Shown one piece after another: positions 655 to 20,405 of a stretch of 64,000 nt of DNA; the stretch's first letter is position 1, and the number at the start of each line of letters is the position of its first letter. This stretch comes from a virus (lineage: Duplodnaviria; Heunggongvirae; Uroviricota; Caudoviricetes), in IMG/VR virus record IMGVR_UViG_3300037471_001733, positions 22,201-86,200 of that record, one strand, 5' to 3'. A model generated the notes under the pieces. That model saw only the letters and a program-made list of their open reading frames with translations, was not told the DNA's origin and searched no databases. The position numbers and the translations under genes were made by a program.

Positions 655-981
655 TCAGCTCTTCAGGTTCGTGTTCTCACAAGCCAGGTCGATGAACGCC
701 CTGTCGGAAGTCGGCATGACGGCGCGGATGTCGTAAGGCCTGCCGTCAATGAGCAATCGCATCCCGGCGTCAATACCGGTGCGATGTCGGATGCGCACGG
801 ACGCGCGCACCGTGGAGAGATCTGCGCCGCCCTTCACAGCCTCAAGGCCGTTGACGTGACGCACGTCAGCCCAAAGCCGCGCGATCTCGGTCCAATCGCC
901 GACGACCTCCTGGCCGAAGTCGTCCTTTCCGCTGGGACGCTGTTGCAACGTCACCCGGAAGTTGAAGGCGCCGGCACCCAT
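655..981 (-). CDS. head-closure / head-tail adaptor protein (SPP1 gp16 / HK97 gp7-like), 108 aa
   Basis: ATG 981 overlaps upstream stop (TAATG). FNFRVTLQQR...DDFGQ...VRIRHRTGI..GMRL.IDGRPYDI pattern typical of phage head-tail joining family; position after gp6-like gene. Confidence 0.75.
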   Translation of the reverse strand: MGAGAFNFRVTLQQRPSGKDDFGQEVVGDWTEIARLWADVRHVNGLEAVKGGADLSTVRASVRIRHRTGIDAGMRLLIDGRPYDIRAVMPTSDRAFIDLACENTNLKS

Positions 982-1550
982 TAGCCGTAGACCTTGAATG
1001 GTTCCAGCAGTCCGCACAGATACGGCAGCGCCGTCATCTGCTTGCCTGCAACAGCCTCACGGTTCGCATAGAAGGCGCCGACGTGCAGCAAGATCCACTG
1101 TCGAATGGACTGCGGCACATCTGCGGGGCTGGACCCGAAACCGGCGACGTAGCGCACGCGCACCGTGTTGATTTCGGCGCGCGTCGTCGGCCATGCCTTC
1201 TCGAAGGCTGGCACTAGGTATGCCGGCGACACGTCGTTGCTGTTGTCTAGAACGTAGTCCGCAGGGTCCAGCGTGGCTAGCACGCCGTCCTCATCCACGT
1301 ACTGCAGCGACTCGACGCCCAGCACCCTGGGCCACTCCAGGCGCAGCGCCTCGCCGAATGCGTCCGTCGTCATCTGCCACGTTGTGCTGATGAGCGTGCG
1401 CTGCATCTGGCCTTCGGCAAGTTGCCGAGCGGCGGTTATGAGGCCGCCTATCAGCAAGTCCTCTTCGTCGTGATCGACTCGAAGGTGCAGCTTTGCCTCT
1501 GCGACGCTCACCGGTTCGGTGGTCGCATCCACGAGCTTTACGGTTGACAT
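981..1550 (-). CDS. gp6-like head-tail connector protein
   Basis: N-terminus VSVAEAKLHLRVDHDEEDLLIGGLITAARQLAEG is the classic Phage_connect_1 signature. Confidence 0.8.
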   Translation of the reverse strand: MSTVKLVDATTEPVSVAEAKLHLRVDHDEEDLLIGGLITAARQLAEGQMQRTLISTTWQMTTDAFGEALRLEWPRVLGVESLQYVDEDGVLATLDPADYVLDNSNDVSPAYLVPAFEKAWPTTRAEINTVRVRYVAGFGSSPADVPQSIRQWILLHVGAFYANREAVAGKQMTALPYLCGLLEPFKVYG

Positions 1551-1553: not shown

Positions 1554-3239
1554 CTACCTTCTTGGACGCTTCGTGTCGTTCAGACGTGGCGCGAAGCCGC
1601 TGCCGCTCGGAGCGCGGCGATATACCTGCGTCGTGTAGACATAAGCCGACAGTGCCGACTGCTGCGTCGCAGCACGCACTACCACTGCACTCAGAGGCGC
1701 CGAGGCAGAGGCTGCATTGACCACGACGGCCGTGACCGGAACGCTGGCGTTCTGAGCAACCTGCACGATCGTGCTCAGGTCTATCGACGTGCTCACGGGG
1801 TGGCTGGCGTCGATGTAGGCGCTCAGGCCAGAAACAGCCTCTGGCTGGCTCAGAACCCCGACACTGAGACCCGCGCTGCGGGTCATGGTGTCAAGCACCG
1901 CAGCACTGACATCAGCAGCCGCCGTGACGCTGACGGCCTCCATGACCATCAGCGACAAGCCGGCCTGCGTCGACTGTGCCGCCGCGATCACGACGTCAAG
2001 CGCCGTCTCCACCGCCTGCTCAACACTCAGTGCCGCACTCAGCGCGGCCTCGACGGCTTGGGTGACCGATACAGGAACTGACAGCTCTGCCTGGAGCAGC
2101 ATCGGCACGTTGATGCAGACATCCAGCGCTGCCGACGTGACCGGCTGATCAAGAACCGCTACCGAGACCTCGGCAAAAGCTTCAACGGGCGTTTCAATCG
2201 CCGCCGACATCTCCACCGTCAACTCGGGGATGGAGTGGATCTGCAGCGACAGATCGGCCGCTAGGGTGTTGCTGAAGAGCACACCGACGCTGAAGGGGAA
2301 ACTTACCTCCGCGTTGGACACCCGGCTGAAAACCGGCATGCCAACCTGCTCGTGCGCGTAAGTCGCCGCCCAGCCGATGTCGGCCGACCAGGCCAGCGGC
2401 AGCCCTTCGTCATAGAACGGGGTGCCAGGCGTCTGCGGCGGCACCGCACCGAGGCCGCCGAGTTCCAGCACTGCGAGACTGCGGAAGCCGGCGTCCTGTC
2501 GGATGTAGACGCTCAGCCCAGTGTTGGCTGAACGCGCCTCCAGCACTGCTGCGGACAACAGCACCTCTGCCGAGCGCGGCTCGTACACGCTGACCGACAG
2601 CGCTGCATCCAGCGAGGCGCTGCGCTGGTTGAACGCCGGCTGCACACCAAGGGGCTGGTATGCATAGATCGCCGACCAGCCGATGTCCGAGGCCCACGCT
2701 TGCGGAAGGCCCTCATCGTTGGCCGGAACCCGCGGCGTCTGCGGCGGCGCTGCTGAGATGCCGCCGGCTTCAAGTAGCGCCAGGCCGCGGAAACCGCTGG
2801 CCGTGGTGACGATCTGCGCGCTCAGTTCGGCGCTGTTCGTGCGCGCGGCCTGCACCGGCGCCGACAGCGGCGCCGACACAGAGCCGGCCTGCTGGACCGC
2901 TACGGACAGCGCCGCATCAGCCTTGGAGACCGGGACGCTGATTGCGCTAAGGCCGCCAGCCTCCAGCAACGCCAGGCCACGGAAACCGCCTTGCCGAATG
3001 TAGACGCTCAGCGGCGCGCTGAGGGTCACGCCCGTGCGCGGCGCGCTGATGCCGCCCAGCTCCAACAGCGCAACACTGCGCCAGCCGCCGTCCAGACGTA
3101 CCAGCGCGCTCAGCGGCGCGCTGGCCGTGGGCTTTGTGCTGACGGCTACCGAGAGCCCAGCCGAGGTGGTGCGCCCGGGGCCGAGCGCACTGACGCCACC
3201 CAGCTCTGGTAGCGCCAGCGAGCGAAAACCGCCCGCCAC
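1554..3239 (-). CDS. 561-aa Ala/Ser/Val/Leu-rich internally repetitive protein of unknown function (virion module)
   Basis: GTG start. Five copies of GGFR(S/G)LALLE(L/A)GG(I/L/V)SA, two ~100-aa tandem units (PPQTP..DEGLP.AW..DIGW), basic C-terminal tail RLNDTKRPRR. Confidence 0.6.
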   Translation of the reverse strand: MAGGFRSLALPELGGVSALGPGRTTSAGLSVAVSTKPTASAPLSALVRLDGGWRSVALLELGGISAPRTGVTLSAPLSVYIRQGGFRGLALLEAGGLSAISVPVSKADAALSVAVQQAGSVSAPLSAPVQAARTNSAELSAQIVTTASGFRGLALLEAGGISAAPPQTPRVPANDEGLPQAWASDIGWSAIYAYQPLGVQPAFNQRSASLDAALSVSVYEPRSAEVLLSAAVLEARSANTGLSVYIRQDAGFRSLAVLELGGLGAVPPQTPGTPFYDEGLPLAWSADIGWAATYAHEQVGMPVFSRVSNAEVSFPFSVGVLFSNTLAADLSLQIHSIPELTVEMSAAIETPVEAFAEVSVAVLDQPVTSAALDVCINVPMLLQAELSVPVSVTQAVEAALSAALSVEQAVETALDVVIAAAQSTQAGLSLMVMEAVSVTAAADVSAAVLDTMTRSAGLSVGVLSQPEAVSGLSAYIDASHPVSTSIDLSTIVQVAQNASVPVTAVVVNAASASAPLSAVVVRAATQQSALSAYVYTTQVYRRAPSGSGFAPRLNDTKRPRR

Positions 3240-3250: not shown

Positions 3251-3727
3251 TCAGGCGGCGCCGACGATGGGCACGGCCGCCGCGTCGGTGGTCAACGTCT
3301 GGGTGTACTGAGTCGTGGAGCCATCGGTCTTCTTGACCGTCAGCGTCGCGCCGGAAATGCTGAAGTCAGCGCGCAGGCCGGTGGTCTCAAGCCACTCGGT
3401 GCCTCCCACCAAGCTCTCGTACACGTTCGACGGAACGACCATGTAGTCATGCCACACGGGCAGCGCACCGGTTTCGTTCACTGCCACGCGCAAGCGGCCG
3501 AGAGTACCGGTGTCGGTGGCATTGATGGCCACGCTGTAGTAGCCGTTCTCCATGTGCGTTGCGGTAGTCGTTTCCGACTTTTGCGCGAAGGCTGCGGCGT
3601 TCTTGGACAGGCGGATCTTTGCTTGAGTCAGCGACAGAGCAGTCTCGGCCGTGAAACCATCGGTGCTGTCAACAAACGGACCGAGCACCAGCGTGGCGGC
3701 CGTGGATTGCTTGAGAAGAGTGCTCAT
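3251..3727 (-). CDS. hypothetical protein (158 aa), virion module
   Basis: ORF with ATGA overlap to upstream gene (3724/3727); protein-like composition; no motif recognised. Confidence 0.6.
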   Translation of the reverse strand: MSTLLKQSTAATLVLGPFVDSTDGFTAETALSLTQAKIRLSKNAAAFAQKSETTTATHMENGYYSVAINATDTGTLGRLRVAVNETGALPVWHDYMVVPSNVYESLVGGTEWLETTGLRADFSISGATLTVKKTDGSTTQYTQTLTTDAAAVPIVGAA

Positions 3728-4455
3728 TGCGCGGACCTCAGTCGGAATTGATGCATGGAACGAGGGGCCTGTGACTGGCTGCTGCCGGAGCCGAGAACTT
3801 CGATGGCGGCCAGCGTCCAGGTCTGTGAAGCGGGGGCCGTCATGCCAATCGCGTAGGTGCCAGTGGCGCCTGAATCGGCGTGGTAGCCGTGGTACACGCA
3901 GTACTCGTTGGCCAGTGTGTCGTTGTTCTGCGCAACGGCAGCAGTGCGCTGCGTGAACGTCCCGGCATTGCTGCGGTATGTCTGCGATGTCAACGCAGTG
4001 GCCGCACGGTCGCCGATGAACATCACCGCCGCCGAGTTGGCCCCGGTGGTCGTCAAGTTGACGGACGGAGCCGTGCCGGTACCGGAGCCAGAGACAACGG
4101 CACCGACGCCGCCAGCACTGCGGAACTGGTACGCCGTCGCGCCGAACACGATGCCATCGTCTCCTTCAGTGCCAGCGCCGCGCGAGACCGAGATCGTCAC
4201 GGACGCTGCCGTGGACGCAGTGGCGGTCCAGATGTAGAGCTCAGCGTGCGACGAGTCGACCGCGACGTCCGCGCGTTGCGTGTACGTGTTCGTCGCGCTG
4301 TCGCTAACGACTAGGCCGTCAATGTGCGATTTCAGGGTGCCAATGACGACGATCAGGTCGCCAACCTGCGTCGTGAGCGACATGGTCAGCGCGCTGCCGA
4401 AGGCCTGGGCCCATGTGCTCGTGTTTACGCTGGTGACAAAGGTTGGTGCTGCCAT
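3724..4455 (-). CDS. hypothetical protein (243 aa), Thr/Ser/Ala/Gly-rich beta-type, virion module
   Basis: ORF packed 3 nt after the beta-helix gene; no motif recognised. Confidence 0.6.
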   Translation of the reverse strand: MAAPTFVTSVNTSTWAQAFGSALTMSLTTQVGDLIVVIGTLKSHIDGLVVSDSATNTYTQRADVAVDSSHAELYIWTATASTAASVTISVSRGAGTEGDDGIVFGATAYQFRSAGGVGAVVSGSGTGTAPSVNLTTTGANSAAVMFIGDRAATALTSQTYRSNAGTFTQRTAAVAQNNDTLANEYCVYHGYHADSGATGTYAIGMTAPASQTWTLAAIEVLGSGSSQSQAPRSMHQFRLRSAQ

Positions 4456-4457: not shown

Positions 4458-5933
4458 TCAGGTTCTCTGGTAAGCGCCGCGGGTCCAGTTGCCAGCCACG
4501 CGCGGGACGCCATCCATGTCGATGTCGTACGGCGCCGCCAAGTCGATGCCGGCCGCAAAGCTGGCGGTGCTGGCGATGTGGTAATCGGCGCCGGCGTAGT
4601 TCTTGAAGATGGACGTCGGCACGCTGAAAATTGCGTTCGTTCCGGAGCCGCTGTAACTCGTGTTCGAAAACGCGTTATGCGACACCACTGAACCGCTTCC
4701 GGCCGTGATGGAGCCGCCGCTACCGATCCAGAGGTTGTTGCGCACGGTGTTGCCGCTGCCGTCCGGGAACTGGATGCCGGCGTTTCCTTCGAGGCCGCGG
4801 ATGAACGTGTTGTTGACGATCACGCAGCCAGTGCCGTTGCCGCCGTTGGTCGGGTTGCCCAGGAAGCCGATGGCGGCATCGCCGACATAGAACGTGTCGA
4901 AGACATTGCCGTACACGAAGATCGCGGGCTTGCGGCTCTGCGAGCGGTTGACGGCCACGGCGATGAGCGCGGTGCCGCCGAGCCCAGACTGGTAGCTGTT
5001 GCGCCAGACGTTGTGCCGAATGACGGTGTCGAACACCGAGAAATACACGTTGACGATTTCGCCGTGGTGCGTGCCGTTGCTCCACGCGTTCTCGCAGGCG
5101 TTGTATTCGATCACGCAGCCATCGGTCTGACGGATGAAGAAGACGTTGCTGCTGCGGTTTATGTAGTTGCGACTGAAGACGATTCCCGTACCCTGAATGT
5201 CGTTCGAGTCTGTATCGAACGTGTACGGCCGGTAGTTGCTGTCGGTCTGCGGGCCAATGCCGTAGCAGTAGCAGCGCGTGATGGTGACGTTGTTGACGGC
5301 TGTGCCGCCGAAGCGGATGTTCTGGCCGCGGGCGTTGCCGCCGGGGCCGGTGGTCGTTCCGTTGCCGCCGGACGTCGAGTGGTCGATGCGGATGCCGTAG
5401 CTGTCGCCGTCGAACCAGTTCAACTCGTTGCGCGTGCCGCCGTCAATGATCCAGTTGCTCGTGTTGATGGTGATCGGTTCGAGCTGGCTGGTGAAGTACG
5501 CCTGGCCGGTGCCGAAGGAATCTGACCAGCCCTGGTTGGTGCCGTGATCCGAGATAGTGGCCTTCTTGATCGTGATGTAGAGCGATCCGTTCGTGGCCGT
5601 GCTCAGCGTGCGCGTGGTGTAGGTACCAGACTTCAGGTAGTACGTGAATCCGCGCTGAAAATTGACTGTGCTCCAGGGCGCCACGTTGTTCCAGTCATCC
5701 CCGGATTGGTCACCAGAGGGCAGCGGACCAACGTACTTGGCATTCGTCGGCGCCTGCGCCTGCTGATCGATCTGCATTGACAGGCCGGCAGATAGAAGCC
5801 GCTGGTACCGCAATGCGAGGGAAAGCGGGCCCGACGCAATGGCGGACGCCGGCTGCGCAAACGACTCCGATGGTCGCTTGCGCTGCGGTCGCCCCATGCC
5901 GGCGCGCACTGCAATGGGCCTGCTGTACGCCAT
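4458..5933 (-). CDS. right-handed parallel beta-helix repeat protein (pectate-lyase/tailspike-like fold), 491 aa
   Basis: Repeated PbH1-like turns: NNVTITRCYCYGIG, GIVFSRNYINRSSNVFFIR, CVIEYNACEN, TVIRHNVWRNS, CVIVNNTFIRG, NTVRNNLWIGSGG, SVVSHNAFSN. Confidence 0.65.
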   Translation of the reverse strand: MAYSRPIAVRAGMGRPQRKRPSESFAQPASAIASGPLSLALRYQRLLSAGLSMQIDQQAQAPTNAKYVGPLPSGDQSGDDWNNVAPWSTVNFQRGFTYYLKSGTYTTRTLSTATNGSLYITIKKATISDHGTNQGWSDSFGTGQAYFTSQLEPITINTSNWIIDGGTRNELNWFDGDSYGIRIDHSTSGGNGTTTGPGGNARGQNIRFGGTAVNNVTITRCYCYGIGPQTDSNYRPYTFDTDSNDIQGTGIVFSRNYINRSSNVFFIRQTDGCVIEYNACENAWSNGTHHGEIVNVYFSVFDTVIRHNVWRNSYQSGLGGTALIAVAVNRSQSRKPAIFVYGNVFDTFYVGDAAIGFLGNPTNGGNGTGCVIVNNTFIRGLEGNAGIQFPDGSGNTVRNNLWIGSGGSITAGSGSVVSHNAFSNTSYSGSGTNAIFSVPTSIFKNYAGADYHIASTASFAAGIDLAAPYDIDMDGVPRVAGNWTRGAYQRT

Positions 5934-6398: not shown

Positions 6399-6650
6399 TC
6401 AGGGCTGCAGGTCCTGGCGAGACACCACGACCGCCCCGCTTGCGCTATCCACGTAGACACGCACGCCGGCCAGTTCGACCACGACCCACTCGACGTTCGA
6501 CTGAGCCTCCGTCCCGACATCCCTGATGCCGCGGCGGCGGAAGATCGCGCCTTCGGTGTCATGGAGCGCGACACGGACGGAGCCGTTGGACGCTGCGCGC
6601 ATGCCGCTCTGTGCGTCTGCGTCGATTTCGAAGGGGATGGGCTGGGTCAT
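6399..6650 (-). CDS. hypothetical protein (83 aa), virion module
   Basis: ORF starting 14 nt downstream of terminator 6664-6690; no motif recognised. Confidence 0.5.
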   Translation of the reverse strand: MTQPIPFEIDADAQSGMRAASNGSVRVALHDTEGAIFRRRGIRDVGTEAQSNVEWVVVELAGVRVYVDSASGAVVVSRQDLQP

Positions 6651-6727: not shown

Positions 6728-7216
6728 TCAGACTTCATCCCAGGAAAAGTAGACGCTGTCACCTTGCGCGAGGCCGCCCGTCGCAGTCGACTGCACTTCG
6801 CACATCAGGACCAAGTGGTCGCCCTTTTCGCCAGTGCTCGTGTACGGGCCGGCGCCAAGACTCAGCGCGGAGCCGGACGTGTAGCCAAAGAAGTTGTTGT
6901 AGCCGGTGGTAGCCGTGGCCTCGGCCGGCGTGGCGTAGGTGGTCACGGCCTTTGCCCACAGCAGAACACCGGTGCCCAGGCTGTTGGTGCCGTCGGAGTA
7001 CGCCTTGATGCCGGTGATCTGCGAGTACGTGCCGCCGGTCACCTCCAGGCGCAACCACTTCTCATACGAGAAATCGCTGCCGCTGGTCGGCTTGACCATC
7101 GGGTTGTTCAGATCGACGGCGCTGTTGTCCGCATTTTTGAACCGGATGCCACTGGCCGCGTCCGTCGCGGTTGCACCGGCCCCATTTTTTTGCACGATGC
7201 GAGTCGTTGCGGCCAT
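6728..7216 (-). CDS. hypothetical protein (162 aa), candidate abundant capsid-accessory protein
   Basis: Strong RBS (GAGGAGGccacATG), own terminators on both sides, directly downstream of capsid region; no motif recognised. Confidence 0.55.
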   Translation of the reverse strand: MAATTRIVQKNGAGATATDAASGIRFKNADNSAVDLNNPMVKPTSGSDFSYEKWLRLEVTGGTYSQITGIKAYSDGTNSLGTGVLLWAKAVTTYATPAEATATTGYNNFFGYTSGSALSLGAGPYTSTGEKGDHLVLMCEVQSTATGGLAQGDSVYFSWDEV

Positions 7217-7227: not shown

Positions 7228-7256
7228 AAAAAGAAAAGCCGCCCGAAGGCGGCTTG
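7228..7256 (-). terminator. rho-independent terminator after the 145-aa gene
   Basis: AGCCGCC(7237-7243)/GGCGGCT(7248-7254) stem, cgaa loop, T-rich tail on minus strand. Confidence 0.7.
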
Positions 7257-7276: not shown

Positions 7277-7714
7277 TTAGGCCGGCGTGCTAGCCGGGTG
7301 GCCCTTGATCACGTTCACGGCGATGGGCGTGCCAGCGCCGTGGGTGCCGCTGAAATCAGCGGTGACCTTCAGGTAACGGCGTTCGCCGATGTAGGCCACC
7401 TTGGCGACGGTGGCCGCAGCGTGAGCAGCGGTCAGCGAGCGCACGATGCCGCCGGTGCCCACGCTGGAGTCAGCGTTGGTCAGAAGGCGCACGTCATCAC
7501 TGGTCACGGCGGTGTACGTGGTGTCGTCCTTCGAGTGAGTCAGCAGGAACTCGATCTTGTTGGACGTGGTGAACGTGATGCCGCCGACGCCGACACCGAT
7601 GGAGACAACGGCGCTGTCGAAGCCCTTGAGATCAATGGCAGAGGAGGTCGTGTCGCTGGACAGCGTGGCGTTGAGCGCCGGCACGATGGAGATGTTGTTA
7701 GCGAGGTCTCGCAT
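7277..7714 (-). CDS. hypothetical protein (145 aa), candidate capsid decoration/cement protein
   Basis: First gene after major capsid gene, flanked by terminators; beta-rich sequence (AIDLKGFDSAVVSIGVGVGGITF...); function inferred from position only. Confidence 0.5.
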   Translation of the reverse strand: MRDLANNISIVPALNATLSSDTTSSAIDLKGFDSAVVSIGVGVGGITFTTSNKIEFLLTHSKDDTTYTAVTSDDVRLLTNADSSVGTGGIVRSLTAAHAAATVAKVAYIGERRYLKVTADFSGTHGAGTPIAVNVIKGHPASTPA

Positions 7715-7785: not shown

Positions 7786-9033
7786 TCAGGACGCGGAAAT
7801 TTTGAGCTTCTTCATCGCGTCGCTCTGACGCACGCCGCCACCGACGCGCTTGCGGGCGCGGTACACCACGAGGCCGTTGTCGGCTTCGGTGATGTAATCG
7901 GCCTGGAAGCCCAGGCCGATGCGATCAACGATGGTGTATGCGCGCTTGAAGTCACCCCACAGCACCGGGTAGGCGCTGGCCGCGATGTCCGGAAGGTCAG
8001 GGAACTCAACGTACGGAGCGCCCAAGATCGTGTTCGCCACGGCGTTGGCGAAGCCAGGGGTCCAGAGGTAGTTGCCTTGGCCGTCCTTAAGCTTGCGGAT
8101 GTCACGGATGGTCTTGCGGTTCAGCGCGAACATCGCGTTGGCAGCGTAGGCCGTCTTCAGCTCGAACTGCAGGTTGATCAGGCCGTCAGACGTGATCTTG
8201 GTAGCGTCGCCGCTGACCACCTCACCGATGCCAGAGGCCACCAGCAGGCCCTCCATTTGCTGAGCGGCGGAGCCAACGCCGTTGATGGACTCGGCGCCTT
8301 CCTTCACGGCCATCTGCTCGGCGACTTCCATGCGCAGCTCGCCAAGGAGGTCGTAGTCCGAATCCTCCAACATCTGTTGCGACACGCGGTTGCGCGCGAA
8401 CATTTCCGGGGCCGTGATCTCGCCCATCCCATACTTGGGATCGGTCGTGTCCGTACGGGTCTCGATTTCACCGACGCGCTTGGCGCTGCCGGTGCCGACA
8501 CGCTTGGGCCACTTGTACGAGTGGCCGCCGATAATGCGCACGGTGGCGAGTCGACGGATGGGCGACTGCTCCACGATGTCCTTGAGGATCGCGCGCTCCA
8601 GATCCGGCGGGGCAAGCAGGTAGCCGGCGGACTGGTCGTCGCCCTTCACCAGAGACGCCATGTGCGTCTTGATGACCTGCATGTCCTCCAGCGAGCGGGC
8701 CTCATGGCGGGTGCGCATCACGCGGTTGAACGCGGCTTGCAGCTTGGCGTTCTCGGCGGCGGAGTCGGCAGCGGTGGAGCCGGGGCGCTGCAGCATGGTC
8801 TGGACTTGATCCAGTTGCTCCTGCATGGCCTTCGCAGCATTCTGCTGGGCCAGCAGTTGCTGGTTCATGTTCTCGTAGCGATCCAGCGTATCGCTGATCG
8901 CCTCGACCTTGGCAGTCAGGTCGCCAACGGCCTTGCCGTCAGCCTTGGCCGAGATGAGCTTGTCGTTGTGCTCACGCAGTTGCGTGACGGCTTCCATTAC
9001 TTCCTGGATGCCATCATTGGTGATGTTGGGCAT
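7786..9033 (-). CDS. major capsid protein, HK97 family (with N-terminal delta/scaffold-like coiled coil)
   Basis: 415 aa. N-terminal coiled coil then GGYLLAPPDLERAILKDIVEQSPIRRLATV... typical HK97-fold MCP; position after ClpP-like protease. Confidence 0.9.
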   Translation of the reverse strand: MPNITNDGIQEVMEAVTQLREHNDKLISAKADGKAVGDLTAKVEAISDTLDRYENMNQQLLAQQNAAKAMQEQLDQVQTMLQRPGSTAADSAAENAKLQAAFNRVMRTRHEARSLEDMQVIKTHMASLVKGDDQSAGYLLAPPDLERAILKDIVEQSPIRRLATVRIIGGHSYKWPKRVGTGSAKRVGEIETRTDTTDPKYGMGEITAPEMFARNRVSQQMLEDSDYDLLGELRMEVAEQMAVKEGAESINGVGSAAQQMEGLLVASGIGEVVSGDATKITSDGLINLQFELKTAYAANAMFALNRKTIRDIRKLKDGQGNYLWTPGFANAVANTILGAPYVEFPDLPDIAASAYPVLWGDFKRAYTIVDRIGLGFQADYITEADNGLVVYRARKRVGGGVRQSDAMKKLKISAS

Positions 9034-9099: not shown

Positions 9100-10182
9100 C
9101 TACTTGCTGATGAGGCTCAGGATGTGGGCCTTCAGGTTCGCCAGCTCGGTTGCGCTTTGCTCGTCACGAGCAGGCGCGGCCGGAGCCGCAGGTGCGGCAG
9201 CGGCGGGTTCCCGAGACTCGTCGCGAGGCCCGGTGTGCAGCGCGGCCTTGGCCAGTGCGATGACGCACTTGGCCTCGGCCGCAGAAAGGCCAACCGCATC
9301 ACGCAGTTGGCGCTCAAGGATGCGGACCTCAGGCGTGCCGTCGTCGTCGCCGGCAGGCACGAGGTCTTGCGGGGTGTTCTTGAAGAAGGGCAGCATGGCC
9401 GAGCGCGCATGCGTCAGCGCGGCCTTCTTCTCCTTCTTCTTGGCCGGCACCATCGTGTCGGCGAATCCTTTGTCCACGGCGTCCTGGCCGCGGAACCACG
9501 TTTCGGCGTCAACCCACGAGGCGATTTCGGCGCGGTCGCCACCGGTGCGCGCGACGTAGATGTCGATGAGGCCGGCTTCCAGCGTGTCCAGCACGTCGGC
9601 TTCCTTGCGCAGGGCCTTGGCGTTGCCGGCGAGAATCGTCCACGGCGCGTGGATCATGAAGTTCGCGCCTTCAGCGATGCGGATCTCGTCGCCGGCCATC
9701 GCAATTACGGAAGCGATGCTGGCGGCAATGCCATCGACGTGCACGATGATCTTGGCCTTGTGCGTGGCCAGCGCGTTGTAGATGCTGACGCCGTCGAACA
9801 CGGACCCGCCTGGCGAGTTGATGTGTACGTGCAGCTCATCAGCATCCAGCGCGGCGAGTTCGCGCACTGTGTCCTCGGCATTAACGCCGCCGTCCCAGTA
9901 GCCGCCGATGTCGCCGTATACAAACAGCTTCGGCGCTTCGCCTTCGTCGGCGGCCAAGCGCAGGTGGCCAGGGCCCAGCGCGCGCGGCGCCAGATTCATT
10001 GCCCGCTCGGGCAGGCCGGCGAGATTGATGACGGGTTTGGTCATTGCGGCCGTCCCTTCCTCATTGCTTTCTTGTTCCTCGCCCAACTCGGAGAGGACTG
10101 CGGCCAGCGACACCTGAGCGTCGCGGATGCGAGATTCGTTGCGGGCGCTCAGCACGCGCCCGGCGTTCAGACGTTGGCCCAT
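9100..10182 (-). CDS. prohead maturation protease, ClpP/S14-like, with C-terminal scaffold-like extension
   Basis: VYGDIGGYWDGGVNAEDT...HINSPGGSVFDGVSIYNAL...VDGIAASIASVIAMAGD ClpP-fold signature; between portal and MCP. Confidence 0.85.
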   Translation of the reverse strand: MGQRLNAGRVLSARNESRIRDAQVSLAAVLSELGEEQESNEEGTAAMTKPVINLAGLPERAMNLAPRALGPGHLRLAADEGEAPKLFVYGDIGGYWDGGVNAEDTVRELAALDADELHVHINSPGGSVFDGVSIYNALATHKAKIIVHVDGIAASIASVIAMAGDEIRIAEGANFMIHAPWTILAGNAKALRKEADVLDTLEAGLIDIYVARTGGDRAEIASWVDAETWFRGQDAVDKGFADTMVPAKKKEKKAALTHARSAMLPFFKNTPQDLVPAGDDDGTPEVRILERQLRDAVGLSAAEAKCVIALAKAALHTGPRDESREPAAAAPAAPAAPARDEQSATELANLKAHILSLISK

Positions 10183-10185: not shown

Positions 10186-11481
10186 CTACCCTTGGTTGCG
10201 CGCTGAAAGCGCTTGACTGGATGCCGCCAAGTCGTTGTTGTCTTGCTGTGCCGGGGCCGCGCCAGCGGGGTTGCTTGGCATGCCTAATTCCGGATCAGAG
10301 GCGTCGCCCATGTTCACGGGCGCGCGGTAGATTTCGCCGCCCTCGTACGGGTTCTGCTCCTCGTAGGCGCGGATCTCGTTCGCGTTGAGCGCGCCCATCT
10401 GCCAGAGGCGGAAGTAGTACTCGGCGCGGTCACGCGCGGCGCCGCGCATCAAGGCATTGGCGTTGAACTTCGCGTAGATACCGTCGTCCAGGTCACGCTC
10501 GCTAAGCAGGTTGCAGTCGATGCTCTGCTCGATGCGTTCGTACCAAGGCGCCAGGCAGTGCACCACGTGCGCCAGGAACATCTGCTCCGCGCTGGCGTAA
10601 GTGGCCGTCTTGTCGCTGTAGCCGACCATCAGTGGCGCGCACCTAAAAATTCTGCACACCTCTTCGATCTGGTGACGTCTCGTTTCGAGATGCTGGCTAT
10701 CAACGCCCGTCATCGACGTCGGCACAAACTTGGCGCCGCGGTCAAGAATCATCGGGCGGAATCTCGCTTCGCCTGTCATGTTCTTCTCGACCCAGTTGCG
10801 CAGAGCAAGGAACTGGTCCGGAAGCAGCTTGTCGTCCACGCTGTAGATGCCAGTGGACTGCGCGCCATTGGCATGCATCAGCGCATGCGCCTCTTCGGTC
10901 GCCATCGCAAGGCCTATGGCCTCGCGAGCCAACTGCAACGGCTTTAGGCCGTCATAGCCGTTCCAACTCAGCCCTTTGACGTGCCAGATCGCCTCAGCCG
11001 GGAAGTCCTGCGACTGCCCAGTGATCTCGCTGCTTACGCGGTACACCGGCCGGCGGAACTGGTCCACATCCACGCACACCTCGTGCGGGAGAAACGGGAT
11101 CAACTCGCGGATCTTGCCGTTGACGACGTTCTTGAACGCCACGAAACGACCGGCCAAGCACACATGCGCGGCCAGCATCTCGCGGAACTCGAAGGACGTC
11201 TGCCAAGGGTTCGGCCGGCGGTACAGCACGCGATACAGCGGGTGGTCCTTCGCCGGATCGCTGCCGCCGTCGTCACGCTCCTTGTAGAGCTTCAAGGGCA
11301 CCTGCGCGATGCCCTCGGCAATCACGCGCACGCACGCCAGGACCGTCGTCACCTGCAGCGCGGTTTCCACCGTGACGTTCTGACCCGAACGCGACGCAGG
11401 AAACCAGCCGCTCCAGAAAGGCTCAGTGAACGCCTGCGCCCGGCGCTGCCGCGGCGCCATCATCTTCGACAGGAAACTCAC
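10186..11481 (-). CDS. portal protein, HK97 family
   Basis: 431 aa; ETALQVTTVLACVRVIAEGIAQVPLKLY and overall pattern of HK97-type portals; between TerL and protease. Confidence 0.9.
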   Translation of the reverse strand: MSFLSKMMAPRQRRAQAFTEPFWSGWFPASRSGQNVTVETALQVTTVLACVRVIAEGIAQVPLKLYKERDDGGSDPAKDHPLYRVLYRRPNPWQTSFEFREMLAAHVCLAGRFVAFKNVVNGKIRELIPFLPHEVCVDVDQFRRPVYRVSSEITGQSQDFPAEAIWHVKGLSWNGYDGLKPLQLAREAIGLAMATEEAHALMHANGAQSTGIYSVDDKLLPDQFLALRNWVEKNMTGEARFRPMILDRGAKFVPTSMTGVDSQHLETRRHQIEEVCRIFRCAPLMVGYSDKTATYASAEQMFLAHVVHCLAPWYERIEQSIDCNLLSERDLDDGIYAKFNANALMRGAARDRAEYYFRLWQMGALNANEIRAYEEQNPYEGGEIYRAPVNMGDASDPELGMPSNPAGAAPAQQDNNDLAASSQALSARNQG

Positions 11482-11756
11482 TCGGCAGCCTTCCCGTCAC
11501 CGGCACGCGCGCGGATGCCCATCAGGCCCAGGCCCAGCGCCAGCAAGCCGCCGACGATGAAGCCAGCCGGCAGGGAGTACAGGCCGGTGCCATAGGCAAC
11601 AGCCCCGGCGCCGCCCAGCGCCAGCATGTCCGGCATCAGAAAGGCCAACAGTTCGCCGCCGGCCGCAATCAGGCCCAGCATGGCGCGGCCAAGGGTCAAC
11701 ATTCGGCGGGCCAGAAATGTCCTGGCACCGGCGATCTTCGTTCGCAGGTTTTTCAC
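11478..11756 (-). CDS. small membrane protein (92 aa)
   Basis: ATGA overlaps at both ends; Gly/Ala/Leu-rich with at least 2 predicted TM helices. Confidence 0.5.
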   Translation of the reverse strand: MKNLRTKIAGARTFLARRMLTLGRAMLGLIAAGGELLAFLMPDMLALGGAGAVAYGTGLYSLPAGFIVGGLLALGLGLMGIRARAGDGKAAE

Positions 11757-13513
11757 GGCGTCAGGACTTCCCAGAATGACTTTCCAGTGGACTCGGTGGT
11801 TCTGGACATCAAGCCCACGGCCATCACAGCCGCCACGATGAGGTCGATGCGGCCCGTGGCCTTTTCCTTGCTGAGCTTGCGGTTCTCGGCGTCATCCATC
11901 ACCGTCACCGCGTTGCTCGCACACCAGTTGAAAACTGGGTGGTCGTTGTGCGCCAACTCGTTGTTGAGCAGCATTCGCTCGAACTCTTCAACGGCTGGCG
12001 AAGCCTCTTTGTAACCTTGCCCGAACGCGACCATGGGCGGTAGGCTGATGCCTTCGTCGTCGGCAAGCGCCAGCAAGTCTTCGATGCGCCAGCGGTCGTA
12101 TGCGACGCCCTGGATCTCGAATGCCTCGGACAGCGCGGACAGCCGCTGCAGCACGTTGCGCTTGCTGATCGCGCGCCCCGGCGTGGTGTCCAAGTGCCCG
12201 GCAGCTTTCCACTGCACGTAGGGCACTCGATCGGTTTCGGCCTTCTTCTGCAGCCCCTCATCAGGCAGCCAGGCGAACGGCACTAGGTGCCACGGCTCGC
12301 CTTCCTCTTGCGGCTCAACCAGCAGCACCAGCCCCGTAAGGTCGGTGGTGGACGACAGGTCCAGCCCGGCCCAGGCTCGCCGGCCGCGCAGGTCTTGCCA
12401 GTTGAAGGTGCGAATCGCACTCTTCCAAACGTCGGCCGACAGCCACGGCGAATCGGCATCCGTCCACTGGCAGAAATTCAGCCGGCGGACGATCGCCTCC
12501 TTAGACGGCATGCCGCGCGCTTCGGTCACCTGCTCGCGCAGGTACTTCATGCCCGGCAGATCGGCGTCCTGCAGCGAAGGGTTGGCCTTCACCCAGCACG
12601 ACTCGTCCGAGAAAGGATCCTCGCCTTCATCTAGGGCGCACACGAAACTGAAGAACGCATCGTCCTCCAGCGTCCCCGCTGCGACCTTTGCGCCGTACTC
12701 GTGGTACGCCCAGCACGGCCCCCGTTTGTCGGAGCCGCTGTTGGTGATCATGAAGATCAGCGCCTGCCGCCGGCTCTTGGTGCCGGCGCGCATCATCTCC
12801 ACGACCGTGTTGGTCTTGTGCTCGTGCAGCTCGTCGATGAGCGCAATGTGCGGCCGCGGGCCGGACTGCCCATCGTCCGAGCTGATCGGGCGGAAGAAGC
12901 TGCCGGCCTGCAGGTAGGCCAGGTTCCACACCCGCTCGCCCGTGCCGCTCTTGGTCAGCCGCTTAGCGAGTTCCGGCGACTGGTCCACCATGGCCACCGC
13001 GTCGCGGAAGAGGATCATGGCCTGATCCTTCTTCGTCGCCGCAGCGTAGACCTCTGCGCGCGCCTCGCTGTCGGCGGTCAGGCCAAGAAGCCCAATGCCC
13101 GCCGAAAGGGGCGACTTCCCGGAGCCCTTGGCCGTCTCGACGTAGGCAACACGGAACCGCCGCCAGCCGTCAGAACCCTTCCAGCCGAACAGACTGCCGA
13201 TGACGAATTTCTGCCACGGCAGAAGCTCGAAGGGCTTTCCCTCAAAGTCGCCGCCGTTGAGCTTCAGGACGTTGCGGTAGTACCGCAGCGCCTTCAGGGC
13301 GGTCTCCAGGTCCCAATTCAGGCCGCGTGCCGGGCCTTTCTCCAGGTCGCGCAGGTGGCGCGCGCATGCCGCGCGCACATGCGGGCCGGCGATGCGTTTG
13401 CCGTCAACGACGGATTGGGCGTACTCGGTGACCGGATCGTCACCAGTCGGGACGTCAGCCGAAGAATTCCTGTAAGTGGTCTTCCTTTTGGTCGTCGTCG
13501 GCGTTTTGGACAT
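11753..13513 (-). CDS. terminase large subunit (Terminase_1 type)
   Basis: 586 aa; Walker-A-like VETAKGSGKS, LIDELHEH Walker-B-like, C-terminal nuclease region; follows TerS. Confidence 0.9.
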   Translation of the reverse strand: MSKTPTTTKRKTTYRNSSADVPTGDDPVTEYAQSVVDGKRIAGPHVRAACARHLRDLEKGPARGLNWDLETALKALRYYRNVLKLNGGDFEGKPFELLPWQKFVIGSLFGWKGSDGWRRFRVAYVETAKGSGKSPLSAGIGLLGLTADSEARAEVYAAATKKDQAMILFRDAVAMVDQSPELAKRLTKSGTGERVWNLAYLQAGSFFRPISSDDGQSGPRPHIALIDELHEHKTNTVVEMMRAGTKSRRQALIFMITNSGSDKRGPCWAYHEYGAKVAAGTLEDDAFFSFVCALDEGEDPFSDESCWVKANPSLQDADLPGMKYLREQVTEARGMPSKEAIVRRLNFCQWTDADSPWLSADVWKSAIRTFNWQDLRGRRAWAGLDLSSTTDLTGLVLLVEPQEEGEPWHLVPFAWLPDEGLQKKAETDRVPYVQWKAAGHLDTTPGRAISKRNVLQRLSALSEAFEIQGVAYDRWRIEDLLALADDEGISLPPMVAFGQGYKEASPAVEEFERMLLNNELAHNDHPVFNWCASNAVTVMDDAENRKLSKEKATGRIDLIVAAVMAVGLMSRTTESTGKSFWEVLTP

Positions 13514-13928
13514 GAACCTTGGACCTCGCGGCCGGCGTCAGCCCGAACTCGACCAGCCACGCCTTGAAGCGCCGGTCGGCATCGGCCAGCATGGCCACCG
13601 CCGGGTTCGCTTTGATGCTGCGGTCGCCCTGCGTGTTCGTTGTTTCGTAGGTAGGGCCGTCCTGGTTCACCAGTTCCTGATACCGCAGGATCTCGGCGTA
13701 CACGGCGCAGCCTCTCTCAAGGGCGTAGGCATCGGCCTCGGTTAGCACGCCCATCCGATCCAGCAGCACAGACATGCGGCCCCAGGCAACCTTGGCCTCG
13801 TCGGACAAGTGGCTGGGGCAACTAGGTATCTCGCGGCGTGGTTTGGGCTCGCTCTTGTTGAGCGCGCGCCTTCCCGGGTTGCCTGTAACTATTTTTAAGT
13901 GGCTCGGTTTTGGCCTGCGCCCCGCCAT
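13455..13928 (-). CDS. terminase small subunit, P27 family
   Basis: MAGRRPKPSHLKIVTGNPGRRALNKSEP...CPSHLSDEAKVAW matches P27-family TerS pattern. ATG 13928 chosen (AAGGA RBS, 4 nt after HNH stop); alternative ATG 13955. Confidence 0.8.
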   Translation of the reverse strand: MAGRRPKPSHLKIVTGNPGRRALNKSEPKPRREIPSCPSHLSDEAKVAWGRMSVLLDRMGVLTEADAYALERGCAVYAEILRYQELVNQDGPTYETTNTQGDRSIKANPAVAMLADADRRFKAWLVEFGLTPAARSKVHVQNADDDQKEDHLQEFFG

Positions 13929-13932
13929 ATCT

Positions 13933-14214
13933 CTATTCCTTGACTGGCCAGCCATCCACCCCGATCACCGGCCGAACTCGATGACCTAGATCTCGCGCCG
14001 TTTTGTCACGGTGACAGGGGGTACATAGCCCCTGAGCCTGGCCCGGGTCTTCGTGGAAGTCCTTGCCGCCGTTGACTAGCGCGACTTTGTGGTCCAACTG
14101 AGTTGCGGCAGCAAGTCGGCCATGGCGTGAGCACTCAGCACAAAGCGGGTTCAGCCGCAAGTAGTAGTCGCGGAACCGCTGCAGCGGGCGGCCACGCAAG
14201 CGATCAGTGGCCAT
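13933..14214 (-). CDS. HNH endonuclease (terminase-associated, HK97 gp74-like position)
   Basis: 93 aa; CAECSRHGR...LDHKVALVNGG...CTPCHRDKT HNH motif; immediately upstream of TerS. Confidence 0.85.
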   Translation of the reverse strand: MATDRLRGRPLQRFRDYYLRLNPLCAECSRHGRLAAATQLDHKVALVNGGKDFHEDPGQAQGLCTPCHRDKTARDLGHRVRPVIGVDGWPVKE

Positions 14215-19944: not shown

Positions 19945-20340
19945 ATGGGAGCAGCAGCAGAACACCGGGGCAATGCCCTGATCCGCAGGCAGGCCGGCGC
20001 AGCGCATGCCGCGCGCCAAGCCATCGAGGACGCAGCGCGCGCCGCGCAGGTGGCCGAGGACTGCAACGAGTTTGCCCGCCAAGCGTGGGCGTATCTGCTC
20101 GACCCTTCCGGCCTGCGGCAACCCGCAGTGGAGCGCGCAAAGACTCGGCGCGGCTGGGCTAAGCGCCATGCGGAACTCAGTGCCGCGCATTGCGCATGGG
20201 TTGATGCGGACCATCGCAACGCCATGGCCTACCTTAGCGCCTGCATCCGCCGCGCGAAAGCCGCGCATGCGCTACTCACATTTGCGCTGGGCGGCTGGAC
20301 GATCCCGGATCACATTGAAGTGCCGCGCGCTGCGGCTTGA
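19945..20340 (+). CDS. hypothetical helical protein (131 aa)
   Basis: RBS cAGGAGcaccacaccATG; stop embedded in TGACCCCTTCC motif. Confidence 0.5.
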   Translation: MGAAAEHRGNALIRRQAGAAHAARQAIEDAARAAQVAEDCNEFARQAWAYLLDPSGLRQPAVERAKTRRGWAKRHAELSAAHCAWVDADHRNAMAYLSACIRRAKAAHALLTFALGGWTIPDHIEVPRAAA

Positions 20341-20349
20341 CCCCTTCCG

Positions 20350-20405
20350 GCGCACTCGCAAGGGTGCGCATTGCGATGCAGCCACGCGGAAGCATCGCAA
20401 TGCGC
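20350..20405 (+). promoter_or_regulatory. two mutually exclusive RNA hairpins (attenuator-like)
   Basis: GCGCAC(20350-55)/GTGCGC(20364-69) overlaps left arm of perfect 14-bp stem GCGCATTGCGATGC(20366-79)/GCATCGCAATGCGC(20392-405). Confidence 0.4.

What the first reader, a model, noticed from the sequence alone, without database searches (positions are those of the whole stretch)
4458..5933. Parallel beta-helix (depolymerase-fold) protein encoded in the head module
Several PbH1-like coils are visible (NNVTITRCYCYG, GIVFSRNYINRS, CVIEYNACEN, TVIRHNVWRN, CVIVNNTFIRG, NTVRNNLWIG, SVVSHNAFSN). These are typical of polysaccharide lyase/hydrolase tailspikes.

Such enzymes are normally tail-associated. 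A copy lying between capsid and connector genes suggests either a capsid-displayed glycan-binding/degrading protein or a rearranged adsorption module.
Basis: partly seen in the sequence, partly recalled or inferred. Interest (0 to 1): 0.5.

Follow-up and report, generated by a model that had tools for sequence, protein, structure and literature searches.

The report
Phage depolymerase-like beta-helix beside neck genes
A tailed phage carries a sugar-chain-cutting type protein, related to enzymes that bacteria encode in their slime-synthesis gene clusters, in a swappable gene block between its capsid and neck genes; it is most likely an extra host-recognition device, not a capsid coat.

Summary

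It belongs to a large family without its own Pfam model (2,844 representatives at E<=1e-30). Most members are secreted proteins. All 5 cellular homologues examined lie in Wzx/Wzy-type polysaccharide synthesis clusters.

In the phage copies the signal peptide is replaced by a conserved module of about 63 aa. Among relatives this module stays 74-81% identical while the helix body falls to 20-37%, as in swapped receptor-binding proteins.

The module contains two 14-aa units of the repeat that fills the neighbouring 561-aa protein.

The seven-gene block starts just downstream of a strong terminator after the capsid genes. It stays 90-95% identical in a relative whose capsid protein is only 21% identical. 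That argues against a capsid-lattice coat. Two weak homology links point to podophage fibres, which mount around the adaptor.

Best reading: a virion-borne polysaccharide depolymerase or adhesin in a relocated accessory adsorption module, probably mounted near the neck. Enzyme activity and virion position are untested.

The parts
4458..5933 (-). Target gene: 491-aa beta-helix protein (N-terminal module plus PL9-like right-handed beta-helix)
5745..5933 (-). Residues 1-63: phage-specific N-terminal module that replaces the Sec signal peptide of cellular homologues; the proposed virion anchor
   Evidence: It is 74-81% identical in P0002 and P0019 while the body is 20-37%. Differences from relatives fall mostly on third codon positions. 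It has no hydrophobic h-region, whereas most family members shown (about 55 of 64 by my count) have one. pLDDT below 55.
5760..5837 (-). Two 14-aa units (ASGPLSLALRYQ and LSAGLSMQIDQQ) of the repeat type that fills the 561-aa neighbour
   Evidence: A PSSM of the 23 repeat units of the 561-aa protein was scanned over 57 other window proteins (12,082 positions). The two best hits are both here, 14 residues apart.
4458..5744 (-). Residues 64-491: N-terminal cap (YVG...RG.TYY...ITIKKAT..DHGT), about 10 beta-helix coils, and C-terminal cap (PY.D..G..R....W.RGA)
   Evidence: Secondary structure and pLDDT; conserved columns
4541..5390 (-). Exchanged core of the helix body (recombination cassette)
   Evidence: In blastn, homology to L005 stops at 5391 and resumes at 4540. 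Homology to L003 stops at 5784. Homology to L018 resumes at 4540.
4905..5216 (-). Codons of the conserved polar residues of the helix body (D240, E276, H290, E292, R306, N308, T321, Y341, N343); candidate substrate groove
   Evidence: These residues are 77-100% conserved across 64 family members and all are kept in the window copy. Their position in the fold was not checked.
7236..7255 (-). Intrinsic terminator after the capsid and 145-aa genes; upstream boundary of the block
   Evidence: 8-bp stem with 6 G-C pairs followed by a T run. Homology with L016 begins at 7259.
7277..7714 (-). 145-aa protein (phrog_5707) that co-varies with the capsid protein; probable head decoration or cement protein; not part of the block
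   Evidence: replaced by an unrelated 149-aa protein wherever the capsid protein is replaced
6728..7216 (-). Block gene 1, 162 aa, conserved, function unknown
   Evidence: 86-94% identical in L001, L003 and L016; 74% in the Azohydromonas aeria prophage
6399..6650 (-). Block gene 2, 83 aa
5937..6380 (-). Block gene 3, 147 aa, conserved; its stop codon lies 3 nt before the target's ATG
   Evidence: 90-94% identical in relatives; spacing
3724..4455 (-). Block gene 5, 243 aa: a second exchangeable protein with a conserved C-terminal tail (RSMHQFRLR)
   Evidence: In L003 the body is replaced by an unrelated 200-aa protein, and only the last 15 residues still match.
3251..3727 (-). Block gene 6, 158 aa; its N-terminal 114 aa have a homologue in the tail-fibre region of a podophage-like genome
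   Evidence: 46% identity to Microcystis phage Mvi-Yong1342-1 XAN61292. That gene lies near a tail-fibre PHROG gene and before the lysin gene.
1554..3239 (-). Block gene 7, 561-aa repeat protein: 5 copies of GGFRSLALLELGGISA and 23 LSxxV units, many 14 aa apart
   Evidence: Only two other protein clusters found. An analogous 434-aa repeat protein occupies the same slot in L018.
981..1550 (-). Head-tail adaptor (gp6-like)
   Evidence: PF05135 at 1.8e-7; phrog_442 at 6e-27
655..1017 (-). Head completion protein
   Evidence: PF05521 at 2.6e-23
7786..9033 (-). Major capsid protein (HK97 type)
   Evidence: PF05065 at 1.4e-60

Best explanation
The gene encodes a virion-borne polysaccharide-recognising protein, probably a depolymerase. 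It consists of a PL9-like right-handed beta-helix from a family of secreted enzymes that bacteria encode in their exopolysaccharide, capsule or O-antigen synthesis clusters.

In this phage lineage the signal peptide has been replaced by an N-terminal module of about 63 aa. That module tethers the enzyme to a conserved set of partner proteins encoded in the same seven-gene block (7216-1554). One partner is a 561-aa repeat protein whose 14-aa repeat unit the module copies twice.

The block is an accessory adsorption module inserted next to the neck genes. Its products most likely sit around the head-tail junction, as podophage fibres and collar whiskers do. There the enzyme would bind and possibly cut the host's surface polysaccharide during first contact. 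The minimal tail tip would then carry out irreversible binding.

Specificity is changed by recombinational exchange of the helix body behind the constant anchor.

Shown here: the fold, the family context, loss of the signal peptide, the mosaic pattern, the shared repeats, the terminator and the gene order.

Inferred: enzyme activity, virion association, and the neck as the mounting site.
For: Fold and family:
- 10 of 64 family members hit PF13229 Beta_helix.
- The family has 2,844 representatives at E<=1e-30.

Link to polysaccharide:
- All 5 cellular homologues examined lie among glycosyltransferase, Wzx, Wzy, Bac_transf, acyltransferase and Asn-synthase genes.
- Most members (about 55 of 64 by my count) carry a signal peptide; the phage copies do not.
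- All nine conserved polar residues of the helix body are kept in the window copy.

Behaviour like a receptor-binding protein:
- Identity to P0002 is 81% in the N-terminal module, 62% in the cap and 37% in the body. For P0019 the values are 74%, 52% and 20%.
- DNA homology breaks inside the gene while the flanking genes stay 86-94% identical.
- The N-terminal codons are under purifying selection.
- In other viral contigs family members lie beside tail-fibre or minor-tail genes.
- The copy in the Azohydromonas aeria prophage has a body 42% identical to that bacterium's own secreted family member. It is only 32% identical to the window protein overall.

Tethering:
- The two best matches of the 561-aa protein's repeat PSSM in the rest of the window both lie in the target's N-terminus.
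- In the L018 lineage a different N-terminus again resembles that lineage's own repeat protein.
- The genes from the 147-aa gene to the adaptor are separated by 11 nt or less, or overlap.

Not a lattice coat, probably neck:
- A terminator at 7255-7236 separates the capsid and 145-aa genes from the block.
- In L016 the block is 90-95% identical although the capsid protein is 21% identical and the portal 30%.
- In L018 the same slot holds a PF23140 protein (GP4 fibre I gp80, 1.4e-22). GP4 fibres attach through a ring around the head-tail adaptor (PMC11445570). Related whiskers mount on a collar at the interface between the adaptor and head-completion proteins (PMC12609058).
- The N-terminal part of the 158-aa protein has a homologue in a podophage-like fibre region.
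- In relative L035, only a 300-aa and a 640-aa gene lie between the tape measure gene and the holin and endolysin genes.
Against: - Nothing here shows that the protein is in the virion, or where.
- Gene order is only a weak guide to assembly site.
- The GP4-fibre hit is in a relative (L018), not in the window, and the window's 162-aa protein shows no significant similarity to it.
- No collar or Ig-like adapter protein was identified.
- The closest solved fold (PL9) is monomeric, and trimerisation was not tested.
- No catalytic residues could be matched to PL9 or any other family. The protein could bind glycan without cutting it.
- The portal, which contacts the adaptor directly, is also swapped in L016 while the adaptor stays 67% identical. 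Independence from the capsid type therefore does not prove there is no contact with the head.
- The tail-tip argument comes from a relative with a different head cassette, because the window ends before its own tail genes.
Confidence: 0.5

Rival explanations
1. Capsid-displayed enzyme. The beta-helix protein and its neighbours decorate the capsid surface as head fibres or spikes on hexons or vertices, as the beta-helix protein LH3 does on atadenovirus capsids.
Against: The block starts just downstream of a strong post-capsid terminator, so high copy number is unlikely. The block is 90-95% identical in L016, where the capsid protein is 21% identical and the 145-aa neighbour is unrelated. It is the 145-aa gene, not the block, that co-varies with the capsid protein. 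Attachment at the vertices alone is not excluded.
Confidence: 0.12
2. Tail-tip receptor-binding protein encoded out of place. The products of the block assemble on the distal tail or baseplate as side spikes, and only the genes have moved.
For: In other viral contigs family members lie beside tail-fibre genes. The relative's tail tip has only two genes after the tape measure gene, so additional receptor-binding proteins must be encoded elsewhere. The N-terminal part of the 640-aa tail-tip protein resembles a Klebsiella phage tailspike N-terminus, which could be a docking platform.
Against: The block is translationally coupled to the adaptor and head-completion genes. Both outside homology links are to podophage fibres, which mount around the adaptor. 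A second insertion, containing a Big_13/SWM-repeat protein of about 810 aa, also flanks the neck genes.
Confidence: 0.2
3. Not a virion component. It is either a soluble enzyme released at lysis that strips polysaccharide around the burst, or a lysogenic-conversion gene that modifies the host's polysaccharide.
For: Cellular homologues act as free secreted proteins in polysaccharide synthesis loci. Relatives occur as prophages.
Against: It has no signal peptide. The conserved N-terminal module is under purifying selection and shares repeats with a neighbouring protein. The gene sits inside the late structural operon with gaps of 2-3 nt to its neighbours. The pattern of a constant N-terminus with an exchanged body is that of virion-anchored receptor-binding proteins.
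Confidence: 0.08
4. Lectin only. The beta-helix binds the host glycan but has lost catalysis, so it acts as an adhesin. This can be true together with any of the proposed locations.
For: No catalytic motif of a characterised lyase or hydrolase family could be matched. Non-catalytic beta-helix adhesins such as PfbA are among the structural neighbours. WceF, an enzyme encoded in a polysaccharide cluster, shows lectin-like behaviour and slow cleavage (PMC7949094).
Against: All nine polar residues conserved across the cellular and phage members are retained. The nearest folds are mostly enzymes.
Confidence: 0.25

Closest known systems
PL9 pectate lyase Pel9A (PDB 1ru4) and PL9 rhamnogalacturonan lyase (5olq)
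   Different: Only 15-16% identity. A family profile finds no PDB sequence at E<=1. The calcium-binding and catalytic residues could not be compared. The likely substrate is bacterial surface polysaccharide, not pectin.
Phage tailspike and depolymerase proteins (for example P22/HK620/9NA tailspikes, Klebsiella and Acinetobacter capsule depolymerases)
   Different: The gene lies between the capsid and adaptor genes of a siphophage, not in the tail-fibre module. The anchor is a low-complexity module of about 63 aa with two 14-aa repeats, not a folded particle-binding domain. Trimer formation is unknown. It has no sequence match in 50,697 phage records.
Beta-helix glycanases encoded in polysaccharide clusters, such as Pantoea stewartii WceF (PMC7949094) and Vibrio RbmB (9ozd)
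   Different: Homology to WceF was not tested. The window copy is phage-borne and lacks a signal peptide.
Neck-mounted fibres: podophage GP4 fibres I-III with their adapter ring and rope protein, Bas63 collar whiskers, phi29 gp12 appendages, lactococcal neck passage structure
   Different: No gp80 domain, collar or adapter was detected in the window itself. Mounting at the neck is inferred, not shown.

Membership tests
Right-handed parallel beta-helix (pectin-lyase-like) superfamily | Single-stranded right-handed beta-helix fold | tested here: met
Right-handed parallel beta-helix (pectin-lyase-like) superfamily | Match to Pfam Beta_helix (PF13229) or a related model | tested here: inconclusive
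   The window protein has no Pfam hit. 10 of 64 homologues hit PF13229 (best 3e-9) and 2 hit NosD.
Polysaccharide lyase family 9 | Detectable sequence homology to PL9 members | tested here: not met
   Neither phmmer nor the family profile finds 1ru4 or 5olq among PDB sequences. Identity is 15-16% in the structural alignment.
Polysaccharide lyase family 9 | Calcium-binding aspartates and catalytic lysine at the equivalent positions (as I recall from the Pel9A structure paper) | not testable with these tools
   Model coordinates and residue-level structural alignments are not returned. The conserved body residues are D240, E276, H290, E292, R306 and Y341, with no conserved lysine in the helix body.
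Phage tailspike / virion depolymerase | Conserved N-terminal virion-anchoring part with an exchangeable receptor-binding body | tested here: met
   N-terminal module 74-81% identical versus body 20-37%; DNA homology breakpoints inside the gene
Phage tailspike / virion depolymerase | Presence in the virion | not testable with these tools
   Needs virion proteomics or cryo-EM
Phage tailspike / virion depolymerase | Homotrimer | not tested
   No multimer prediction was available. The nearest solved fold is monomeric.
Phage tailspike / virion depolymerase | Cleavage of host surface polysaccharide | not testable with these tools
   Indirect support only: cellular homologues lie in polysaccharide clusters and the conserved polar residues are retained.
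Capsid decoration protein | Co-variation with the major capsid protein it binds | tested here: not met
   In L016 the target is 91% identical and the neighbouring block genes 90-95%, while the capsid protein is 21% identical.
Capsid decoration protein | Co-expression with the capsid gene at high level | tested here: not met
   A strong terminator at 7255-7236 lies between the capsid/145-aa genes and the block. This is a sequence prediction only.
GP4-type fibre / collar-whisker system | Gp80 (PF23140) fibre domain | tested here: not met
   No hit in any window protein. It is present only in the L018 relative. The window's 162-aa protein is not significantly similar to it.
GP4-type fibre / collar-whisker system | Ig-like adapter or collar ring protein | tested here: inconclusive
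   The 83-aa and 147-aa proteins have no family hit.

The most novel reading that the evidence does not exclude
The seven-gene block is a previously undescribed modular display apparatus on a siphophage, mounted at the head-tail junction or elsewhere on the head side. Conserved scaffold proteins (162, 83, 147 and 158 aa) and a repeat-rich rope protein (561 aa) would hold exchangeable glycan-active cargo proteins. Each cargo would be tethered by a short docking peptide: the beta-helix enzyme by an N-terminal peptide that copies the rope's own 14-aa repeat, and the 243-aa slot protein by a conserved 15-aa C-terminal tail. The enzyme bodies would be recruited from the host clade's own polysaccharide-cluster enzymes.
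Probability: 0.3. Interest if true: 0.7.

Novelty: new variant of a known kind. Interest (0 to 1): 0.45.

Why it matters
Phage depolymerases are usually sought in tail-fibre modules. Here a depolymerase-type protein, and apparently most of the phage's accessory adsorption proteins, are encoded beside the neck genes, where annotation pipelines do not look for host-range determinants.

The family itself has no dedicated Pfam model. It is large (2,844 representatives at E<=1e-30) and is tied to Wzx/Wzy polysaccharide clusters. It is therefore a candidate new family of exopolysaccharide-processing enzymes, and this case suggests phages can draw on host-type enzymes.

A short peptide anchor shared with a repeat protein, if real, would be a simple handle for swapping cargo on virions.

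A prophage with the same block exists in a named bacterial strain, Azohydromonas aeria CFCC 13393, so these ideas can be tested directly.

Tried and rejected
Searches on the target that found nothing:
- Single-sequence AF2 gave no usable model (pLDDT 29).
- Pfam, PHROGs, NCBIfam and PDB sequence searches gave no hit. The family profile against PDB sequences also gave none.
- tblastn against 50,697 phage records found nothing.
- A scan of species-representative bacterial genomes with the target found no close relative.
- The afdb50 fold library was unavailable.

Searches on the neighbours:
- Pfam at E<=5 gave nothing useful for the 83, 145, 162, 147, 243, 158, 561 and 177-aa proteins.
- PDB sequence searches on five of them gave only chance-level hits.
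- tblastn of the 147-aa and 162-aa proteins against phage records found nothing.
- The 561-aa protein has only two other clusters in 5.8 billion sequences.
- BLASTP among all block proteins of the different lineages found no hidden paralogy.
- The 162-aa protein is not significantly similar to the GP4 gp80-like protein of L018.
- The idea that the 200-aa replacement in L003 is a LamG-type lectin got no Pfam support.

Other checks:
- The closest cultured phage by capsid protein, Rhizobium phage RHph_X2_25 (38%), has only homing endonucleases and small ORFs in the capsid-to-connector gap. It is therefore no model for the block.
- A literature search for head-fibre depolymerases found no precedent.

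Rejected ideas:
- That the N-terminal 52-63 residues are untranslated and the true start is Met53. Rejected because of the codon-position pattern of differences and the conservation across lineages.
- That the family is rare. The word-indexed search found about 65 clusters, but the exhaustive search found thousands.
Full report
**1. What is at the coordinates**

The ORF 4458-5933 is on the minus strand. It encodes 491 aa, starts with ATG, and has GC3 0.85 like its neighbours. The plus-strand frame is full of stops.

The genes around it, all on the minus strand, are as follows:
- small terminase, 13455-13955
- large terminase, 11753-13513
- portal, 10186-11481
- prohead protease, 9100-10182
- major capsid protein, 7786-9033 (PF05065, 1e-60)
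- a 145-aa protein, 7277-7714 (phrog_5707)
- ORFs of 162, 83 and 147 aa
- the target
- ORFs of 243, 158 and 561 aa
- gp6-like head-tail adaptor, 981-1550 (PF05135)
- head completion protein, 655-1017 (PF05521)
- a 177-aa ORF

**2. Fold**

The protein has no hit in Pfam, PHROGs, NCBIfam, PDB sequences or 50,697 phage records. AF2 on the single sequence failed (pLDDT 29). A homologue search gave 58 clusters, then a few more with a profile.

With the 64-sequence alignment A2, AF2 gave pLDDT 85.7 and pTM 0.85. Residues 1-60 and the loop 189-199 are of low confidence. The rest is a stack of short strands.

The beta-helix observation is confirmed.

**3. The family and what its cellular members do**

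An exhaustive HMMER search of 1.84 billion representatives found 2,844 proteins at E<=1e-30 and 6,362 at E<=1e-10. This is a large family without its own Pfam model.

Most of the 64 aligned members (about 55 by my count) have a classical Sec signal peptide that ends just before the conserved N-terminal cap (..AANHYVR..). Some carry extra Ig, LamG or fibronectin domains.

I looked at the genomic context of five cellular homologues: P0003, P0007, P0015, P0029 and P0037. All five lie inside polysaccharide synthesis clusters. These contain GT2 and GT4 glycosyltransferases, Wzx-type flippase (Polysacc_synt), Wzy_C polymerase, Bac_transf, acyltransferases and Asn-synthase-like amidotransferases, often in pairs.

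This parallels the known case of WceF, a tailspike-like beta-helix glycanase encoded in the stewartan cluster (PMC7949094). By inference, the cellular family processes the polysaccharide made by its own cluster.

Nine polar residues of the helix body are 77-100% conserved across the family: D240, E276, H290, E292, R306, N308, T321, Y341 and N343. All are present in the window protein.

**4. What is special about the phage copies**

The window protein, P0001, P0002, P0019, the copy in the Azohydromonas aeria prophage and a few others lack the signal peptide. In its place they carry a non-hydrophobic N-terminal module of about 63 aa.

This module is translated and constrained. Against three relatives, 21-25 of the 35-46 nucleotide differences in its first 57 codons fall on third positions, and 16-20 of the changed codons are synonymous.

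Identity to the window protein by region:

| Relative | N-terminal module (1-57) | Cap (58-165) | Body (166-440) |
|---|---|---|---|
| P0002 | 81% | 62% | 37% |
| P0019 | 74% | 52% | 20% |
| P0001 | 68% (its called start lacks 12 residues) | 76% | 98.9% |

At the DNA level, homology to L003 stops 50 codons into the gene (at 5784) and resumes in the 158-aa gene. Homology to L005 stops at 5391 and resumes at 4540. Homology to L018 also resumes at 4540. The flanking genes stay 86-94% identical throughout.

A constant anchor with an exchanged body is the hallmark of receptor-binding proteins and tailspikes. In other viral contigs, family members without this module lie next to tail-fibre or minor-tail PHROG genes.

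**5. Link to the neighbouring repeat protein**

The 561-aa protein (1554-3239) has five copies of GGFRSLALLELGGISA and 23 LSxxV units, many spaced 14 aa apart. Nothing else in the window has these features, and only two other clusters exist in the protein collection.

I built a PSSM from its 23 units and scanned 57 other window proteins (12,082 positions). The two best hits were both in the target's N-terminus: LSAGLSMQIDQQ at 17.8 bits and ASGPLSLALRYQ at 12.3 bits. They are 14 residues apart.

In the L018 lineage both the target's N-terminus and the repeat protein in the same slot (434 aa) are different. They again resemble each other (AVLAGTGTLRSL versus AVLAGSGTTRTS). The two repeat proteins also share a C-terminal Y-x-R-A-P-x-G-S-G-F motif. 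The L018 resemblance was seen by eye and was not tested statistically.

The 243-aa slot behaves in a similar way. In L003 its body is replaced by an unrelated 200-aa protein, and only the last 15 residues (RSMHQFRLR) are kept.

I infer that short conserved peptides dock exchangeable proteins onto a conserved scaffold.

**6. Capsid, neck or tail?**

Several results bear on where the protein sits.

(a) A strong intrinsic terminator lies at 7255-7236 on the minus strand, between the 145-aa gene and the 162-aa gene. It has an 8-bp stem with 6 G-C pairs, then a T run. The block therefore starts just downstream of the usual post-capsid attenuator.

(b) In L015 and L016 the terminases are 82-86% identical, but the portal is 30% identical, the protease 47% and the capsid protein 21%. 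The 145-aa gene is replaced by an unrelated 149-aa gene. DNA homology resumes at 7259, that is, at the terminator. The block proteins are 94%, 77%, 93%, 91%, 95%, 90% and 67% identical in gene order. The 145-aa protein tracks the capsid protein; the block does not.

(c) From the 147-aa gene through the adaptor, the genes are separated by 11 nt or less, or overlap.

(d) In L018 the slot just after the 145-aa gene holds a 215-aa protein that matches PF23140, podophage GP4 fibre I gp80 (1.4e-22). GP4 fibres attach through a 15-copy adapter ring around the head-tail adaptor (PMC11445570). Related whiskers of phage Bas63 mount on a collar at the interface between the adaptor and head-completion proteins (PMC12609058).

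(e) The first 114 residues of the 158-aa protein are 46% identical to a protein of Microcystis phage Mvi-Yong1342-1. That gene lies just after an 849-aa ORF, near a gene that hits tail-fibre PHROGs, and before the lysin gene. No tape measure gene is annotated in the parts of that genome I read.

(f) In relatives, a second insertion lies between the head completion gene and the gp10-like gene. It encodes proteins of about 180, 124 and 181 aa and an 810-833-aa Big_13/SWM-repeat protein.

(g) In L035, which is the same contig as L015, the tail region runs: major tail protein, two small ORFs, a 1,391-aa tape measure, a 300-aa protein (phrog_6278), a 640-aa protein, then holin and endolysin. The tail tip is minimal, and the accessory fibres are encoded around the neck genes.

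Taken together, a high-copy capsid-lattice coat is unlikely. A relocated accessory adsorption module is the best description. The neck is the most likely mounting site, but this is an inference from gene position and two weak homology links.

**7. Host clade and a testable relative**

Among 80 prophage loci recovered with the large terminase, only one carries the block: Azohydromonas aeria CFCC 13393 (Burkholderiales). Its identities to the window proteins are:
- large terminase 84%, capsid protein 70%
- 162-aa protein 74%, 83-aa protein 58%, 147-aa protein 59%
- target 32%, 158-aa protein 45%
- a protein resembling the 561-aa repeat protein is also present

In the others the adaptor follows the head genes directly where it was found. 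In L116, for example, about 4.5 kb separates the end of the terminase gene from the adaptor gene, against 10.2 kb in the window. The block is therefore a lineage-specific insertion of about 5.7 kb.

The prophage's beta-helix protein has the same type of N-terminal module. Its body, however, is 42% identical (E 6e-82) to A. aeria's own secreted family member P0025, and only 32% identical to the window protein overall. This fits helix bodies being drawn from, or converging on, the host clade's own enzymes.

**8. Comparison with known systems, and verdict**

- By fold the protein is a PL9-like beta-helix. Membership of PL9 is not supported by sequence, and the catalytic residues could not be tested.
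- By behaviour it is a tailspike-type receptor-binding protein.
- By ancestry it belongs with beta-helix proteins encoded in polysaccharide clusters, as WceF and RbmB are.

The new elements are these: an uncharacterised enzyme family; a peptide-type anchor shared with a repeat protein; and the placement of this and other exchangeable proteins beside the neck genes of a siphophage with a minimal tail tip. Enzyme activity, oligomeric state and virion position remain untested.

I rate it a new variant of a known kind, of moderate interest.

Noticed in passing
window 1554-3239 (-): An orphan 561-aa protein built from five GGFRSLALLELGGISA motifs, 23 LSxxV units (many 14 aa apart), two PPQTP...DEGLP.AW..DIGW motifs and a basic C-terminus. 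Only two other clusters were found in 5.8 billion proteins.
   Followed up: partly
window 7236-7255 (-): A strong intrinsic terminator between the 145-aa and 162-aa genes. It coincides with the recombination junction where relatives L015 and L016 carry a different portal-protease-capsid cassette.
   Followed up: yes
window 3724-4455 (-); L003 3886-4488: The gene downstream of the target is also modular. An unrelated 200-aa body in L003 keeps only the last 15 residues (..RSMHQFRLR..) of the 243-aa protein.
   Followed up: partly
window 5868-5933 (-) and 1554-1625 (-): The target's N-terminus (AYSRP..AGMGRPQRKRP) loosely resembles the C-terminus of the 561-aa protein (VYRRAPSGSGFAPRLNDTKRPRR). 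A similar Y-T-R-P/A motif pair occurs in L018. The motif is too short to test statistically.
   Followed up: no
L015/L016 (IMGVR_UViG_3300037313_000802 and IMGVR_UViG_3300037420_001397): The whole head-morphogenesis cassette (portal, protease, capsid protein, small downstream protein) is swapped between phages. Their terminases are 82-86% identical and most of their fibre-block proteins 90-95%.
   Followed up: partly
L035 11494-20207: In a close relative only two genes (300 and 640 aa) lie between the 1,391-aa tape measure gene and the holin and endolysin genes, an unusually small tail tip. The N-terminal part of the 640-aa protein resembles a Klebsiella phage tailspike N-terminus.
   Followed up: partly
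L001 8158-10590; L018 17931-20432: A second insertion between the head completion gene and the gp10-like gene encodes an 810-833-aa protein with Big_13 and SWM_repeat (flagellar-system-associated) domains, plus three small ORFs. The window ends inside this insertion, within the 124-aa gene at 6-86.
   Followed up: no
L019 8504-13354: A low-GC (36%) viral contig has a 1,616-aa ORF with three tandem matches to this beta-helix family, next to a tail-fibre gene. Some representatives in the protein library have up to 7 matched stretches (P0068, 3,875 aa).
   Followed up: no
L115 (Azohydromonas aeria CFCC 13393, NZ_VIDQ01000012.1, 80506-102251): A prophage in a named bacterial strain carries the same block. 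It has an extra stretch of about 1 kb between the 162-aa and 83-aa genes, holding at least one 86-aa ORF. The bacterium also encodes a secreted family member (P0025).
   Followed up: partly
window 14553-15449 (-): An HNH endonuclease gene lies about 600 nt from the small terminase gene. As I recall, this arrangement is typical of HNH-assisted cos packaging.
   Followed up: no
window 20001-24000: A local composition swing: GC 0.69 at 20-22 kb, where there is a 609-aa ORF at 20433-22262, then 0.58 at 22-24 kb, against about 0.63-0.65 elsewhere.
   Followed up: no
L006-L010: The cellular homologues recur in one cluster type: Asn-synthase-like amidotransferases (paired in L006, L007, L009 and L010), GT2 genes, and in some loci DUF354 and a Wzx-type flippase. 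This suggests an amidated or uronic-acid-containing polysaccharide as the substrate.
   Followed up: no
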